From contig CAVNZM010000010.1 of assembly GCA_963693365.1 (NCBI GenBank), forward strand, positions 7,193,794 through 7,257,793: 64,000 nucleotides of DNA. The letters are read 5' to 3'. Each line of letters begins with the position of its first letter. The stretch's first letter is position 1. Below, piece after piece: positions 54,525 to 60,500 of the stretch. This DNA comes from Amoebidium appalachense (taxonomy: Eukaryota > Protista > Ichthyosporea). A program made the position numbers and the translations under genes. The notes beneath the pieces were generated by a model. That model was not told the DNA's origin. It made no database searches and worked only from the letters and a program-made list of their open reading frames with translations.

Positions 54525-57500
54525 ATGTACATGACACTTGGCCGCGCGCGGCGCCAAGCGATTGCTTGGTGGGGATCGTTGAGGCCGGCAGGCAGAGGGA
54601 CTCTATGTGACCCCCATACCTGCACTCGTTCCGTCAGTACCCTCCGCATAGCGCAACGGCTGCCCTTCTCGCGCTTGCTACCCCTCACCGTGCTACTGGT
54701 ATTGCCGAGCCTCCCCCCCCCCCCAACACACACACACACTACCCCCCACCCCTCCCCAATCCCACCCCAGCTCACTCTCCCCCTCTCCTTCCCGCCCCCA
54801 CTCCATCCCCGATCAGTCGTTCTTTACCCCCAGTCACCTCATTTCACATTGCCTTCATGGCCATCTGGCCTGCATTCGCACACTCACAGGCACGCTGCAT
54901 AAGACACCCACGCTCACCTGTGTTCTTTCTCCTTTACCGTCATGGGTCAATTTATTACCAACCATGCGGACTTCACCCAACTTTTTCCCACCATCTTCTC
55001 CTGCAGTCCAACCCCCCCCCCCCCCCCCCCTCCCCCCCGGCGCCGCCCCTCTTCCCCCCCCCCCCCCCCCCCCCCCCCCCCCCCTTCCCGCCCGCCCGCC
55101 CGCCTCTTCCCTCCCCCTTCTACCCAATTCCTCACACTGTACTGTCTTTGTTCTTTCTCACCCATCACAAACTTGCACGCACCCGTCAACACAACCCATT
55201 CTACACATGCACACACACCAGTGCACATACATATGGGAACACAGGGGAACGCACATATTGATACCCTAACTTCCTCGCACAACAAATAACCCCCCCCCCC
55301 CCCCCCCCCCCCCCCCCTTCCCCCAATGCACACACACACACCTACCCACCTACCTACGCCGGTCTGACCCCCCACCTACAACCCGTTGCCCAACTTCCCC
55401 CCCCCCCCCCCCCCCCCCCTCCTAACACACACACACGCACACACACCTCCCTCCCTCCCTCCCTCTCTCTCTCTCTCTCTCTCTCTCTCTCTCTCCCCCC
55501 CCCCCCCCCCTCCCTTCTCCTCTCTCTCTCTCTCTCTCTCTCTCTCTCTCTCTCTCTCTCTCTCTCTCTCTCTCTCTCTCTCTCTCTCTCTCTCTCTCTC
55601 TCTCTCTCTCTCGCTCTCTATCTCTCCCCCCCCCCCCCCCCCCTCCCCCTCCCTCCCCCTCCCCCTCCTGCCCTGGCAGCCCCCCGTCCCTCTCCTCGTC
55701 CCCCCGCACTCCAACTTCGGGTGTTCCTGCTTGCTCTCTCTGGTCCTTTTTTCACTGGTTGTTTAAATGTGACGCAGCATCTTTCCCCAGGTTTTCAGTC
55801 ATGTAATTCTTTCATTTCGTTCCACACTTGCCTTCGAAGACCCCCCCCTTCCCCCCCCCCCCTCCCCTCCCCCCCCCCCCCCCTTCCCTTCCCCTCCCCC
55901 TCTCCCCAGCTTCACCCTATCCCTCCCCGATTGCTAATCGATGGTAGTCTGAATCCCCCCCTCCCCCCCCCCCTCCCCCCCCCCCCCCCCCCCCCCCCCC
56001 ACCACCACCACCACACACACAGAGAAACACACCCCACCAAAAAAAGCAAACAAAAAACCCCACATTTCACTTTGTCTTTCACCCTCTCGGACCCCCCATG
56101 CATTAAGCACAACCTACTGACATGACCTGAGTCCATTGTGACTTCAAACGGCCATACACACCCACATACATCTATATGCATATGTGGCAAATGAACATGT
56201 GTACATTTACACACATGCATGTGCACATTTAAATGCTCTCGCCATGCTTCTGTCTCTCATACAGGACACGTGTTCTCCCTGAACACATGCTACATGCTTG
56301 TTTTACTTACAAACATGCATAGTTAGTTATCTCACACAGCGCACATACACACACACACCCACACACACACGCGCGCGGGCACACACACACACACACACAC
56401 ACACACACACACACACACACACACACACACGCACACACAGGGCACAGTGGGGATTGCTTCTGCTGATTCGCCTGCAGATTCCAAGCATGCACGTTGGGAG
56501 CAGTTTACGGGTGAGTTGTGACTACGTGGAAATTCGAAAGTTTTCTTCATTAAGAATTGAATGATGTATGCATGTTTTCTGCACGTGAAAACCCCTGGCA
56601 GGTTGTTTTTGTTTCTTTTCCCGTGGTTATTATTTTTTTTTCTTTTTTCTTTGGGCCAGGATTCGAAGGGGGAAAGTAAAGTGGAATGAGGGAGTTATTT
56701 TGTTCGTATTGAGTATGCTTACTGAGAATGTACGCTACAGGTGGGGCCGGAATATTTGCAAATTATCTTCGGGCGGTTCTTGGGCCCAGAGTTGTTCAGG
56801 TAAGCAACCTTTCTTACCAGTCTCACTCAACCATCGCCGCCTTCCTCCCTTTACTGGCTTTCTTTCCTCACCGAGACTGTATACCATCCCTAGCTCTCCT
56901 CCTTTCCCCATGCACAGACTTGAACATGCCCCACACACACACACACACACACACACACACACACACACACACACACACACACACACACACACACACACAC
57001 ACACACACACACACACAGTGACACATACGCACACACACACACGCACATCTCCCCCCCTCTCCCCCCCCCCCCCCCCCCCCCCCCCCCCCCCCCCCCCGAG
57101 ACATCTTTACTTCCATGCAACCGGGCATGGTTGCTCTGTGTCGTGCATCTGTAAGCACATACGCGTTTGTCGCTGCACTGCATTAGTTTGCACACACATC
57201 TTCACCGTTTTGCTCACCTTGCTTGCATAAGCAACCCTGCTCGTCTTTGATCAAGACGGGTTGACCCACCCAAGTTCAGTTGATGCTGCTGTCTGAGTTG
57301 GAGCGTCGTATATACGCGGGCTAAGGGGTCGAAACTCAGACGCAATTGATGACTTGGGCCCTCCCTGAGGATGGGCTCTGCTTATGACGCATACTGTGCG
57401 CATGGCTGATGCTGCATACTTGAATGTTTGCCTTTGCATGTGTCCTGCATCATGCTTCTCATCGTCTATGCGTACTTCGTACTGTGTTCCGCATTCAAAC

Positions 57501-60500
57501 CCCCCCCGCCTCCCCCCCTCCCCCTCCCGCCTCCGGGGTAGACATACACACACATCCTTCTATGATGAAACCCGTTTAAACTGTGTTCATCCCTACCTTC
57601 TATGCAGTCTGCTGAGCCCCCCCCCCCCCCCCCCCCCCCACGAACACACACACACACATCCACACAGGCACCCACCCACCCACCCATCCCCCCCCCCCCC
57701 CATCCCCCCCCCCCCCCAACACACACACACACACGTGCTGTCCTTATGTTGCGATGTTTGGGCTGTGCATACCAGCATTTTTCCCAATCTTTTTTTTTTT
57801 CTTTAGTACACGGTCAGCCTGTTGGTTTCATTTTTTATTTTTATTTTGATTTTGTGACAAATAATAAATAAAGGCATTGCCTGCTTAACACCAATTATCT
57901 GGTCTTTTTTTTTTTTAACCAACCCCCTCCCCCCCCTCCCCCCCCCCCCCCCCCCCCCCCCTCCCTACCCGCCCTTTCCAGGCACGAACGGAAGCTGAGC
58001 CTCAGCCTGACCCACAACCTGCAAGGCGCCAAACTAAAGGTATCCCCCCCCCCCCCCCCCCCCCCCCCCCTTCCCTCCCCCCCTCCTCCCCCCTCTCCCC
58101 TCCCGGTGTTCTTTTCTAAGTTCCAAATATCCACCATTTCTGTTGATCCCTTCAAATATTTCCGTAGTTTGTGCACTGCTACGTCAACAGAGAAGTGGCA
58201 GGTCCGGGGGAGGGGAAAGGAGGGGGGGGGGGGGGGGGGGGGGGGGGGGGGGGGGGGGGGGGGGGGGTGGAGGGTTCAGTCTTACTTCAGAAAGCTGGTG
58301 GATGGATGTTTTGTATGCTCATAGGGCCAGAGGGGAGGGGTGAAAGGGGAGAGGAGAGGTCTCTGTTTGGGGGTGTGAGTTGTAGGTCTGGTGTGTGTGT
58401 ATGTCTCCCTGTCTGTGTGAGTGTCTGTGTCTGAGAGTGCATGCGTGTGTGTGTGCATGTGTGTGGGGGTGTTGCATTTGTATGTGTGGAGTGGGGAGAA
58501 GGGGACAGGTGGGAGGGGCGGGGGGAGTGAGGACGTGATATGTTGCGAGGTGATTGGGTTGACGAGGTTGAAGTGTGAGGGAGGGGGTGGAGGAGGGGGA
58601 ATTTGAGAGCACACGCACCCGCATGGGTACTGATAGGTCATTGGTGCAGAGCCCAAGACCAAGGAGGAGATTCTTGCAGCCATTGCGTCTCTACAGGAGC
58701 AGCTGGACAGAACATATCTGAGGCACCAGGTTGAACTGGCTGACGAGAGAACAAAACTGCAGGTAGGGGGCACACACACACATATACAGGTACACACAAA
58801 CACACGCACACACAGGCACACACAGGCACCATGCAGGCACACACAGCCACACACAGGCACACACGGGTACATACGGGCACACACACATGCGCACACACAC
58901 TGGCACACACATGTTCACACATCCACACACACAAACACACATCCACCACACACACACACACACACACACACACACACACACACACACACACACACACACA
59001 CACACACACACACACACACACACACACACACACACACACACACAGGCATATACAGGCACACATAGGCACATGCACGTGGGCGGGTGTGAAAGAAAAAGAA
59101 CACAGTGGGAGGTGGATGAGTGGTTGTGCCGGTTTATGAGGTGATTGAAGGTGCACAGAGATTTGCAGTGTAAGTGAGGCGAGTGTGGTTTCGTGGATGC
59201 TGTAAGCCAGATTAGGGAAATACTATGCGTGTGTCTTGCTGCATCTTAGTTAATGTGCTTGTTGGTGTTGGTGTGGGTGTGTATGTGTGTGCTTTGTGTG
59301 TTTACTGATATGCCTACGGTTGTGTTTTGGTGCTTTGGAGGAGTGTATTCGGGATGGAGTAAGGGATTACCAAGAGAATTATAGAGAGAAAGTGTGTGGG
59401 TTTGCGTACAACCCAGGGAAGACTGGAAACACAAGGTGTCCTCTCATAGTGCGTCTGTTAATCAGCACTTGCTTGTGCTCGTTCATGGTGTGTGGGTGTG
59501 TGCGTGTGTGTGTGTGTGTGTGTGTGTGTGGGTTCGTGTGTGTGGGTGTGGGCGCGTGGGCGTGTGGGTGAGTGTTTGGGTGAGTGCGTGTGTGCGTGCG
59601 TGCTGTGTGTGTGATACGTCCGTGTGCTTGCGTGCGTGTGCTTGCGTGCTTGCATGCGTGTGTGGTGTGTATGTGTGGGTTTGAGGGGGGAGTGGGGAGG
59701 GGGAGAAGGGGGGTTGCATTGTGGGATATGTGGAGAGGGGAGAGGGGGATCGAATGGTGTTGTAGGAAGTAACGTGTGGGTTACAGAATGAGATCGAGCA
59801 GCTCAAGCGGGAGAACGAGGATCTGCGCATGGGCTATCTGCACCTGCACACACAGGTCGAGAGTGCACAGGACGATGCCGGTGTGCCTAGAAGGGTATAA
59901 CCCCACCCCCCCACCCCCCACCCCCCTCCCCCCTCCCTGCATCGTCCTCCTATCAATACCCCCATCCACATGCTAAAATGAAAACCACTCCGATCTACCT
60001 GCTATCCCCCCCCCCCCCCCCCCCCCAAAAAAAAAAAAAAAAAAAAAAAAAAGGCCCTCCCATTTGCCTTATACAGCCCCCCCTATCAGTCACCTCCTGT
60101 CTCCAATCAGTCTGCATTTCTTAATTATTAAACTTGCTTTTGGTGTCGGTGGTGTATGTGTTAGGATACAAGCGGTTTTTGTTGGGGAAGAGCAAGGGGG
60201 TAGAGGTGGGTGGGGCTTGGGGGAGGGGAGGGGGAGGGGGGATGGGGGCGGGGGAAGGGGGGGGGGGGGGGGGGGGGGGGGGCAGCCTTGTTTCTGTTTG
60301 TAGGCCTTAAAGGAGGTGGGGTACTGATGGTGTGATTGGGCACACCAGAAAACAGCAATTGAGATGTACAGCGACACCCTGGACCTGCTGTCAAAATACA
60401 ACAAAGACTACAATGCAAGCGACCACCTGCCCAGGGTATATACCCCCCTCCCCCCCCCCCCCCCCCCCCCCCCCCCCCCCCCCTTCCCCCCCGATCTCCC

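What the first reader, a model, noticed from the sequence alone, without database searches (positions are those of the whole stretch)
57225..57507. Unclassified structured RNA element with covarying helices, a probable pseudoknot and a poly(C) 3' end
Seen: three full-length copies (57225-57507 +, 35739-36012 -, 33810-34049 -) begin at or near GCATAAG and end GCATT(C/G)AA(A)C(n). The 5' ~160 nt folds as a closing stem CATAAGCA/TGCTTATG, a hairpin CTCGTCTT-TGATC-AAGACGGG, a long stem CCCAAGT...GTCTGAGTT/AACTCAGAC...ACTTGGG and a hairpin with a conserved CTGAGGAT loop. The divergent copy changes sequence but keeps pairing: the long stem becomes ACAGTATCTG/CGGGTACTGT, the inner hairpin CGT-ATAT-ACG becomes CGT-CA-ACG, and the long-range pair GACCC(T)/(G)GGGTC becomes GACCTA/TAGGTC, a compensatory change that implies a pseudoknot. 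Established: known SINEs derive from tRNA, 7SL or 5S and usually end in A-rich or short tandem tails; by eye this does not fit tRNA, 7SL, hammerhead or HDV topology. Inference: a new SINE-like RNA whose fold is under selection, possibly a ribozyme, an RT-recruitment structure or an intron-encoded ncRNA.
Basis: partly seen in the sequence, partly recalled or inferred. Interest (0 to 1): 0.8.

Follow-up and report, generated by a model that had tools for sequence, protein, structure and literature searches.

The report
Split-core hammerhead in a protist retroposon
This is an abundant non-coding jumping repeat of a single-celled relative of animals that sits in runs of C inside introns and carries all the conserved letters of a hammerhead ribozyme in a scrambled order, so it likely cuts its own RNA and is likely copied by a Penelope-like retrotransposon; neither step has been tested.

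Summary
The repeat and its paired regions are real, but the boundaries and the reading need correcting. The element starts about 127 nt further 5' (about 57098). Contigs of two samples join its 3' end to its 5' end through a 43-nt spacer, giving a unit of about 452 nt. The window holds 14 pieces. Most are 5'-truncated, all lie in the sense of inferred host introns, and C-runs flank the 3' end (11 of 14) and often the 5' junction (8 of 14). The host is Amoebidium (an ichthyosporean). The structured domain is not unclassifiable: it holds the complete hammerhead core in the order cleavage site, GAAA, CUGAnGA (type SGC of Eckert 2023). Covariation puts the 5' strand of stem II at the 5' end, so the core is opened between A9 and G10.1 and held by two extra helices. 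A kink-turn motif joins stem III to the stem I-II helix. Published Naiad 3' ends show the same wiring (read by eye). Predicted cut: after U57299. Best reading: a non-autonomous Penelope-like, retrozyme-type element. Cleavage, circular RNA and the autonomous partner are not shown.

The parts
57098..57506 (+). Copy A: near-complete unit of the A subfamily (the unit is about 452 nt with the 43-nt spacer, which is absent here)
   Evidence: high-copy cover from 57098/57100; joint 57506 -> 43 nt -> 57098; spacer motif: 0 matches in the window
57098..57225 (+).
   Evidence: table 2 and loose ends; single copy in the window
57226..57237 (+). 5' strands of closing helices P0 (57226-57233, pairs 57379-57386) and P0b (57235-57237, pairs 57373-57375)
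57240..57260 (+). Hairpin H1; with P0b it is inferred to hold A9 next to G10.1
   Evidence: role inferred
57263..57268 (+).
   Evidence: two two-sided changes in C; duplex -10.0/-10.9/-8.8 kcal/mol in A/B/C; deleted in D
57269..57278 (+). [quoted passage not shown]
   Evidence: one two-sided change in C
57279..57284 (+). Kink-turn motif, bulged strand (3-nt bulge, G, A, N); partner strand 57347-57349
   Evidence: motif met at the same place in A, B and C, lost in D; K-turn rules recalled
57285..57299 (+). Stem III 5' strand, U16.1 (57298) and U17 (57299); predicted cut between 57299 and 57300
   Evidence: cleavage predicted, not shown
57300..57303 (+). Stem I strand 1.1-1.4 (pairs 57361-57364)
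   Evidence: 4 bp in A, 2 in B, 3 in C; A-U to G-C change at pair 3
57304..57324 (+). Variable linker with a weak hairpin between stem I and stem II
57325..57346 (+). Stem II 3' strand (57325-57330, C11.1 = 57330), GAAA (57331-57334) and stem III 3' strand
57361..57372 (+). Stem I strand 2.x (57361-57364), CUGAGGA core (57365-57371) and extra U (57372)
57387..57499 (+). 3' region shared, with divergence, by most truncated copies; ends in CATTCAAA
57500..57507 (+). C-run: internal to the tandem unit and the end point of dispersed copies
35733..36012 (-). Copy B (A subfamily, truncated at the start of the core); core at 35939/35907/35872
33804..34082 (-). Copy C (C subfamily, with its short leader 34050-34082); core at 33978/33950/33914
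20048..20217 (-). Copy D: old copy, core and stem II decayed
32548..32722 (-). 5'-truncated copy E (begins near the cleavage block; CUGAnGA intact)
33156..33271 (-). 5'-truncated copy with CUGAUGA
17450..17575 (-). 5'-truncated copy between two C-runs
17164..17304 (-). 5'-truncated copy
43464..43570 (+). 5'-truncated copy between two C-runs, in a COX6B intron
43202..43302 (+). 5'-truncated, internally deleted copy
9501..9589 (-). 3'-end fragment
9116..9161 (-). 3'-end fragment (weakest hit, E about 0.02)
3331..3413 (-). 3'-end fragment
20358..20410 (-). 3'-end fragment

Best explanation
The repeat is a high-copy, non-coding, head-to-tail unit of Amoebidium whose copies sit at C-runs and carry a complete hammerhead core in scrambled order, and it is likely a non-autonomous Penelope-like (Naiad/Chlamys-type) retroelement whose RNA is predicted to cut itself after U57299. 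Shown in the sequence or by calls: dispersal, 5' truncation, C-run flanks, the head-to-tail joint in contigs, the core words in the order S-G-C with stems I and III in register, covarying stem II and I-II helix, and the kink-turn motif. Inferred: (1) tandem or circular copies are transcribed; (2) the ribozyme is a type-SGC hammerhead re-opened between A9 and G10.1, with P0b and H1 holding the two ends together; (3) it trims multimers to unit length, perhaps only in trans between neighbouring units, which would spare host pre-mRNAs that contain single copies; (4) the partner's endonuclease nicks the G strand of a (C)n:(G)n tract, and reverse transcription starts inside the RNA at its C-run, so dispersed copies end there, lack the 43-nt spacer and are often 5'-truncated.
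For: Mobility: 14 nhmmer hits in 64 kb with staggered 5' ends and a common 3' end; 9,474 contigs of run X1 lie on the 406-nt stretch. Target: a C-run of 6 or more lies within 12 nt of the 3' end in 11 of 14 pieces and of the 5' end in 8 of 14, against about 7.5% at random host-sense positions. X1 also has copies that start right after another copy's C-run (table 5c). Tandem unit: joint 57506 -> 43 nt -> 57098 in X9 (depth 60) and X15 (16.7, beside monomer contigs of 21-23), two samples. The same spacer end precedes 57098 in X13, X20 and X14. Ribozyme core: the only CUGAnGA and the only GAAA of the 409-nt sense strand pair with the same UH site (stem I 4 bp, stem III 8 bp). A relaxed S-G-C descriptor hits only copy A in the window and 0 of 150 shuffled windows; a looser one hits only A, B and C and 1-4 of 150 shuffles. 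Stem II from the 5' segment is the stronger duplex and keeps two two-sided changes. Rfam Hammerhead_1 picks the same stem II register in copy C, though far below threshold (12.4 bits, E 7.7). [quoted passage not shown] Naiad consensus 3' ends (three Acropora, one Morbakka, two octopus) show the same split wiring when read by eye. PLE traits: head-to-tail non-autonomous copies, (C)n targets and a 30-40 nt optional tail (PMC8557442); two (C)n-targeting Chlamys consensi end in AAC plus a C-run; reverse transcription starts inside the RNA and produces the tail (PMC11167929).
Against: No cleavage was shown. None of the listed 5' loose ends or joints falls at 57300 (the lists were cut, 266 and 118 rows not shown). 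The published SGC descriptor is not met, even with N7 free and linkers to 30 nt, and my relaxed descriptors were written after seeing the element. Stem I is short and is broken in B and in 12.5% of X1 depth (T57362C). CUGAnGA is intact in only 5 of the 10 copies that cover it. Core conservation between A and C (12 of 12 unpaired nt) is only weakly above the 20 of 26 of other unpaired positions (about p 0.04). A crude helix-length estimate leaves the all-in-one-molecule fold 46-62 A short; Eckert et al. note the same kind of puzzle in ribozymes that do cleave. No autonomous partner was found: no PLE domain in the 163 frames scanned (13 plus 150, the latter picked from 218 that passed a complexity filter), and no genome is held. 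The joint may be a DNA tandem rather than a circle: the run kinds are guesses, and a related joint (57441 -> 57113) is also in DNA-like X1. In PMC11167929 the text does not report priming by homology, so pairing of the RNA C-run with a G-run primer is my inference. C-runs also expand in place (C4 against C33 in the two LINE copies). The 5' ends of A and C were set by hand from the read data, so 2 of the 8 5' C-runs are partly by construction.
Confidence: 0.62

Rival explanations
1. The same element and ribozyme, but mobilised by a non-LTR LINE (a HERO-like RLE element, or the APE LINE in this window) rather than by a Penelope-like element.
For: Both LINE copies in the window also end in AAA plus a C-run. 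Unchecked scan notes report the same fold in HERO 3' UTRs. No PLE protein was seen here.
Against: The window LINE's 3' UTR shares no sequence with the element (local scores 18 and 20; shuffles mean about 17, max 24). The tail-like spacer, the head-to-tail unit and the (C)n target match PLE descriptions. The wiring is visible in Naiad consensi.
Confidence: 0.2
2. The fold is real and hammerhead-derived but is not catalytic in this family; it serves as a protein-binding scaffold (reverse transcriptase or a K-turn protein) or is a relic.
For: Short stem I, a GUU site, the geometric shortfall and no pile-up of ends at the cut site. In PAc the hammerhead is dispensable for insertion in vitro, and no reads end at its site.
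Against: All 12 unpaired core nucleotides and the registers of stems I and III are kept between two subfamilies that differ at 27% of core positions. Validated SGC ribozymes have similar oddities.
Confidence: 0.2
3. An ordinary type-SGC hammerhead whose stem II is formed by the strand after CUGAGGAU (57373-57379), while the 5' GACCC and CCC segments act as a lock that turns it off.
For: That strand pairs 6 of 7 positions with 57324-57330 in A, follows the extra U as in HRIMA-1, and passes my model-a descriptor in A, B and C.
Against: It has a G-G mismatch at the third pair and is weaker (-7.2 against -10.0 in A; -3.9 against -8.8 in C). The C-type change at 57325 breaks it but keeps the 5' pairing. 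It leaves no stem I-II helix. Naiad ends show the split wiring.
Confidence: 0.08
4. A true SINE with a tRNA-, 5S- or 7SL-derived polymerase III head.
For: The words at 57294-57301 and 57327-57335 resemble A and B boxes (consensus recalled).
Against: They lie about 200 nt inside the unit, only 21-25 nt apart, and coincide with hammerhead blocks S and G. ARAGORN finds 0 genes. Rfam gives no tRNA, 5S or SRP match at E up to 10.
Confidence: 0.04
5. A host intron-encoded RNA (box C/D-like, K-turn) kept by host selection.
For: All 14 pieces are host-sense in inferred introns; a K-turn and C/D-like words are present.
Against: Random 5' truncation and decay; would-be guides differ between copies; no Rfam snoRNA match in the core. 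The orientation is mostly explained by 70 of 88 C-runs being host-sense (14 of 14 expected at about p 0.04).
Confidence: 0.03

Closest known systems
Type-SGC hammerhead ribozymes (HRIMA-1 and variants; Eckert et al. 2023, PMC10085705; read main text parts 1-6 of 8 and supplement parts 1, 5, 8 plus passages)
   Same: [quoted passage not shown]
   Different: Here the 10.x strand and its I-II helix strand lie 5' of block S, so block C is split between A9 and G10.1, which that paper assumed cannot happen. Stem III is 13 bp plus a kink-turn, the linkers are longer, and N7 is G. The element is in a eukaryote genome; that paper found no type-SGC in genomes of known organisms. Cleavage is untested.
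Naiad and Chlamys Penelope-like elements and their non-autonomous forms such as MRC1 (Craig et al. 2021, PMC8557442; read parts 2 and 4 of 10, passages, supplement parts 1, 2, 28 and passages)
   Same: 5' truncation, head-to-tail copies, a 30-40 nt optional tail, (C)n targets and an AAC-plus-C-run terminus (Chlamys). The same split wiring is visible by eye at several Naiad 3' ends that the paper scored as lacking canonical hammerheads.
   Different: No ORF and no identified partner. The host is an ichthyosporean, and 'Amoebidium' has 0 occurrences in that paper's text and supplement. The two (C)n Chlamys ends that I read show no such core. A kink-turn takes the place of the Naiad bulge.
Non-LTR retrozymes of animals (Cervera and de la Pena 2020, PMC7229834, passages; bioRxiv 10.64898/2026.07.22.740005, part 1 of 5)
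   Same: Non-coding units of a few hundred nt, tandem form, a hammerhead, and a proposed dependence on PLEs.
   Different: Those carry type I hammerheads and have shown circles and cleavage, and that preprint reports exclusion from introns in vertebrates. This family is mostly dispersed, truncated, intronic and C-run bound.
PAc (Poseidon) mechanism (Frangieh et al. 2024, PMC11167929; read parts 1-2 of 4)
   Same: Internal start of reverse transcription explains copies that end before a short tail.
   Different: PAc starts at a site not homologous to the cut DNA and prefers AT-rich targets. C-run priming here is inferred.

Membership tests
Hammerhead ribozyme (any topology) | Core nucleotides CUGAnGA, GAAA and UH | tested here: met
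   A, B and C carry all of them; CUGAnGA intact in 5 of 10 copies that cover it
Hammerhead ribozyme (any topology) | Stems I and III in register with the core | tested here: met
   A: I 4 bp, III 8 bp beyond A15.1-U16.1; B: I 2 bp; window C: I 3 bp, III interrupted by a private mismatch that read consensi lack
Hammerhead ribozyme (any topology) | Site-specific self-cleavage after H17 | not testable with these tools
   Only assembled contigs were available; listed ends do not cluster at 57300, but the lists were cut
Hammerhead types I, II, III (circular permutations) | Block order CGS, GSC or SCG | tested here: not met
   Order is S, G, C; Rfam models reach at most 12.4 bits against a cut-off of 34
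Type-SGC hammerhead (Eckert 2023) | Block order S, G, C | tested here: met
Type-SGC hammerhead (Eckert 2023) | Stem II formed by the strand directly after CUGAnGA (uninterrupted block C), as in the published descriptor | tested here: not met
   0 hits with the published pattern and two relaxations; the covarying stem II uses a 5' strand
Type-SGC hammerhead (Eckert 2023) | Helix joining the far ends of stems I and II | tested here: met
   57269-57278 with 57350-57358 under the split model
Non-autonomous Penelope-like element / retrozyme | Head-to-tail units and a short optional tail | tested here: met
   Joint through 43 nt in contigs of X9 and X15; spacer absent from the window's dispersed A-type copies
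Non-autonomous Penelope-like element / retrozyme | 5' truncation and microsatellite target without clear duplications | tested here: met
Non-autonomous Penelope-like element / retrozyme | Shared 3' end or pseudo-LTR with an autonomous PLE encoding RT and GIY-YIG | not testable with these tools
   No genome held; no PLE domain in the window frames scanned; motif scan of viral contigs for a starter protein gave 0
Non-autonomous Penelope-like element / retrozyme | Unit-length linear and circular RNA | tested here: inconclusive
   Contig joints cannot tell circles from DNA tandems; run kinds are guesses
SINE (tRNA, 5S or 7SL head) | Polymerase III gene-derived 5' head | tested here: not met
   no direct alignment to Amoebidium 5S or 7SL was possible
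SINE or 3' fragment of the window's APE LINE | 3' end shared with the LINE | tested here: not met
Kink-turn | 3-nt bulge followed by G-A and A-G pairs between two helices (rule recalled) | tested here: met
   A and B (3b-3n U-U), C (A-G); lost in D; a second candidate in A and B overlaps stem III and the core and is absent in C. Folding and protein binding untested.

The most novel reading that the evidence does not exclude
An active hammerhead ribozyme of a permutation not in the papers searched (type SGC re-opened inside the CUGAnGA block and braced by a kink-turn) drives a circle- or multimer-based retrozyme cycle in a unicellular relative of animals. It may fire only between neighbouring units, which lets thousands of single copies sit in host introns unharmed. 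The fold would then predate animals or move widely with Penelope-like elements.
Probability: 0.42. Interest if true: 0.82.

Novelty: new variant of a known kind. Interest (0 to 1): 0.7.

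Why it matters
Eckert et al. assumed that the three hammerhead blocks cannot be interrupted and found type SGC only outside named genomes. A split-core form in a high-copy genomic element of a culturable protist would widen hammerhead topology and explain why descriptor searches scored Naiad/Chlamys elements as lacking the ribozyme. 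It would also give a short, natural, two-subfamily substrate for asking what PLE hammerheads do and how PLE reverse transcriptases start inside their RNA. Scan notes already report this fold in animal Naiad and HERO elements (unchecked). What this window adds is a non-animal host, a non-autonomous C-run-targeting unit, and covariation between two subfamilies. If the one window is typical of the 202-Mb genome (size from PMC11244446), there would be roughly 40,000 pieces and about 10,000 core-bearing copies; this is a rough extrapolation.

Tried and rejected
Rfam at gathering score over the window: 0 matches. At E up to 10: 3 matches near A, all outside the core, and 2 near C, both insignificant. 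ARAGORN: 0. Exact-motif scans for relatives: 0 in metagenome contigs and 0 in viral contigs. Five in prokaryote genomes, against about 4 expected by chance, none with stems I and III both of 4 or more; rejected. No RNA holder was listed by the run search. A degenerate RT-motif scan of viral contigs to obtain a Chlamys-like starter protein gave 0, so the partner search was left undone. HDV-like reading: considered by eye from a recalled layout and rejected, because there is no P3/L3 between the P2 and P1 strands and the would-be catalytic C is absent in C, D and E. Recalled resemblances to 5S, 7SL, 28S, U3 and box C/D RNAs: no Rfam support. Antisense ribozyme: no CUGAnGA on the minus strand of the five copies scanned (part of the spacer was not seen). 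Window LINE as donor of the 3' end: rejected. Nested folding alone is ambiguous: A and B prefer stem III, C prefers stem II. Paper searches for a prior description listed nothing on an Amoebidium SINE, PLE or ribozyme, or on a split-core hammerhead. Most listed papers were seen only as listings, subscription journals are largely not held, bioRxiv supplements are closed, and Dfam and Repbase could not be searched. Scan notes by sequence, by place and two word searches gave nothing.

Full report
OBSERVATION. Iterated nhmmer finds 14 pieces in the window with a shared 3' end and staggered 5' ends. Host exons were inferred from Pfam hits, open frames and GT/AG sites, not from RNA: a PHD/WSD gene, a zf-MYND gene, a nibrin-like gene, COX6B and an unnamed plus-strand gene. 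All 14 pieces lie in their introns, in sense. In these spans 70 of 88 C-runs of 9 or more are also sense, which explains most of that bias. The window's LINE protein is 100% identical over 74% of its length to a EukProt protein of Amoebidium parasiticum, so the host is Amoebidium.

TRUE EXTENT. Twenty of 24 listed runs hold at least half of the words of 57100-57500; three may be the source of this DNA, and none is on record as RNA. In X9 and X15 single contigs go from 57506 through 43 letters back to 57098. The last 24 of those letters appear as the same loose end in X13 and, in part, in X20 and X14, and they share words with the short leader of the C subfamily (34050-34082). The unit is therefore about 452 nt, head-to-tail, with the C-run inside it. 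The A-type spacer motif is absent from the window. Contigs cannot tell a circle from a DNA tandem, and a related joint also stands in DNA-like X1.

INSERTION SIGNATURE. A C-run of 6 or more lies within 12 nt of the 3' end in 11 of 14 pieces and of the 5' end in 8 of 14, against about 7.5% at random (the 5' ends of A and C were set by hand). X1 has truncated copies that begin in another copy's C-run. C-runs are a general intron feature here and can expand in place, so the long poly(C) is not proof of a tail. The 5' junctions point to C-runs as targets. The LINE's 3' UTR is unrelated to the element.

STRUCTURE. RNAalifold recovers the closing stem, H1 and the long stem. For my hand structure, 8 of 51 pairs change on both sides: 6 between the A/B and C types (two in stem II, two in stem III, one in the I-II helix, one in stem I), one in D, and one an alignment artefact. 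Slid controls give 0-2. Four rows from 2-3 lineages are thin evidence, and the structure was drawn from these sequences. Variants within the young subfamily are mostly neutral or disruptive: A57268T keeps a pair, while G57258A, C57304A, T57362C and T57247C break pairs. The long stem contains a kink-turn motif at the same place in A, B and C (rule recalled).

IDENTITY OF THE FOLD. The single CUGAnGA (57365-57371) and single GAAA (57331-57334) of copy A pair with one GUU site (57297-57299) through stems I and III, in the order site, GAAA, CUGAnGA. This is type SGC of Eckert et al. 2023 (PMC10085705), which cleaves in vitro. The published descriptor is not met. A relaxed core descriptor hits only A and 0 of 150 shuffled windows; looser forms hit only A, B and C and 1-4 of 150 shuffles (written after seeing the element). 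Two strands could supply stem II. The one after CUGAGGAU has a G-G mismatch and is weak. [quoted passage not shown] The RNA then reads as type SGC with its two ends joined through the kink-turn and re-opened between A9 and G10.1, and P0b and H1 would hold those two nucleotides together (inferred). I recorded this model. Scan notes seen later describe the same split core in animal Naiad and HERO elements; they are unchecked leads, not support. I checked the Naiad claim by eye in the published consensi: three Acropora, one Morbakka and two octopus 3' ends among the passages shown have a 5' stem II strand, an I-II helix, UH, stem I, GAAA and CUGAUGA in this order, and in Acropora also the closing helix and hairpin. 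Other passages shown were coding-region chance matches, canonical-order cores in two nematode Naiads, or unclear. HERO was not checked.

RESULTS AGAINST. No cleavage evidence exists, and no listed end falls at 57300 (the lists were cut). Stem I is only 2-4 bp. CUGAnGA survives in 5 of 10 copies. Core conservation is only weakly above background (12 of 12 against 20 of 26). A crude geometric estimate says the complete fold does not close within one molecule (46-62 A short), which suggests partial melting or folding between neighbouring units; validated SGC ribozymes raise a similar question. PLE hammerheads are proposed to act as dimers (PMC4209133; shown for axolotl retrozymes in PMC7229834).

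MECHANISM AND FAMILY. Head-to-tail non-autonomous copies, (C)n targets, heavy 5' truncation and a 30-40 nt optional tail are described for Chlamys and Naiad PLEs (PMC8557442). Two (C)n-targeting consensi end in AAC plus a C-run, as this element does. PLE hammerhead tables show the same words around the core, and a PLE reverse transcriptase starts inside its RNA, leaving the tail out (PMC11167929). I therefore read the element as a non-autonomous PLE-type retrozyme. It works like one. Membership is not established, because the autonomous partner could not be sought without a genome. It is not a member of type SGC as published, since block C is split, although it probably works like one.

VERDICT. 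Real, mobile and structured, with a hammerhead core in a wiring that I did not find in the papers searched. My odds: mobile C-run retroelement about 0.93; split-core hammerhead fold about 0.8; actual cleavage about 0.6; PLE partner about 0.65. New variant of a known kind; interest 0.7.

Noticed in passing
window 50011-51835 + and 22437-24115 +: Two 5'-truncated copies (91.6% alike) of an APE-RT LINE. The 3' UTR holds (CA)n, and a C4 in one copy is C33 in the other, so C-runs expand in place. Both end in AAA plus a short C-run.
   Followed up: partly
introns throughout, e.g. after 58039 +, 62486 +, 17617 -, 32760 -: Many introns open with GT, then 2-6 nt, then a long C-run; C-runs are about 80% host-sense.
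   Followed up: partly
loose ends at 57150 and 57204 in run X9: One contig leaves the leader at 57150 for 202 nt and another enters at 57204 after 255 nt or more. This may be a longer relative sharing both ends, a lead to the autonomous partner.
   Followed up: no
joint 57441 -> 57113 in X20 (depth 158) and X1 (depth 8): A further head-to-tail subfamily, present in a DNA-like run as well.
   Followed up: no
window 57247: The common variant T to C turns the H1 loop into CUGAUCA, one letter from a second hammerhead core word; possibly a trace of how the split form arose.
   Followed up: no
PMC10085705 supplement, HRIMA-1 alignment: Several rows have an internal loop (UGAC with AAGAU) at the I-II helix that looks like a kink-turn by eye; 'kink' has 0 occurrences in that supplement.
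   Followed up: no
window 6688-6720 and 7564-7596: A 33-nt inverted pair, 94% alike, about 850 nt apart; MITE-like ends.
   Followed up: no
window 7805-9041, 14042-14456, 36992-37277, 48946-49152, 51880-52070, 52198-52602, 63681-64000: Local tandem arrays and duplications (units of about 40, 59, 145, 103, 103, irregular and 168 nt).
   Followed up: no
window 20210-20320 -: The sequence upstream of copy D differs from both the A and C leaders; a third leader or host flank.
   Followed up: no
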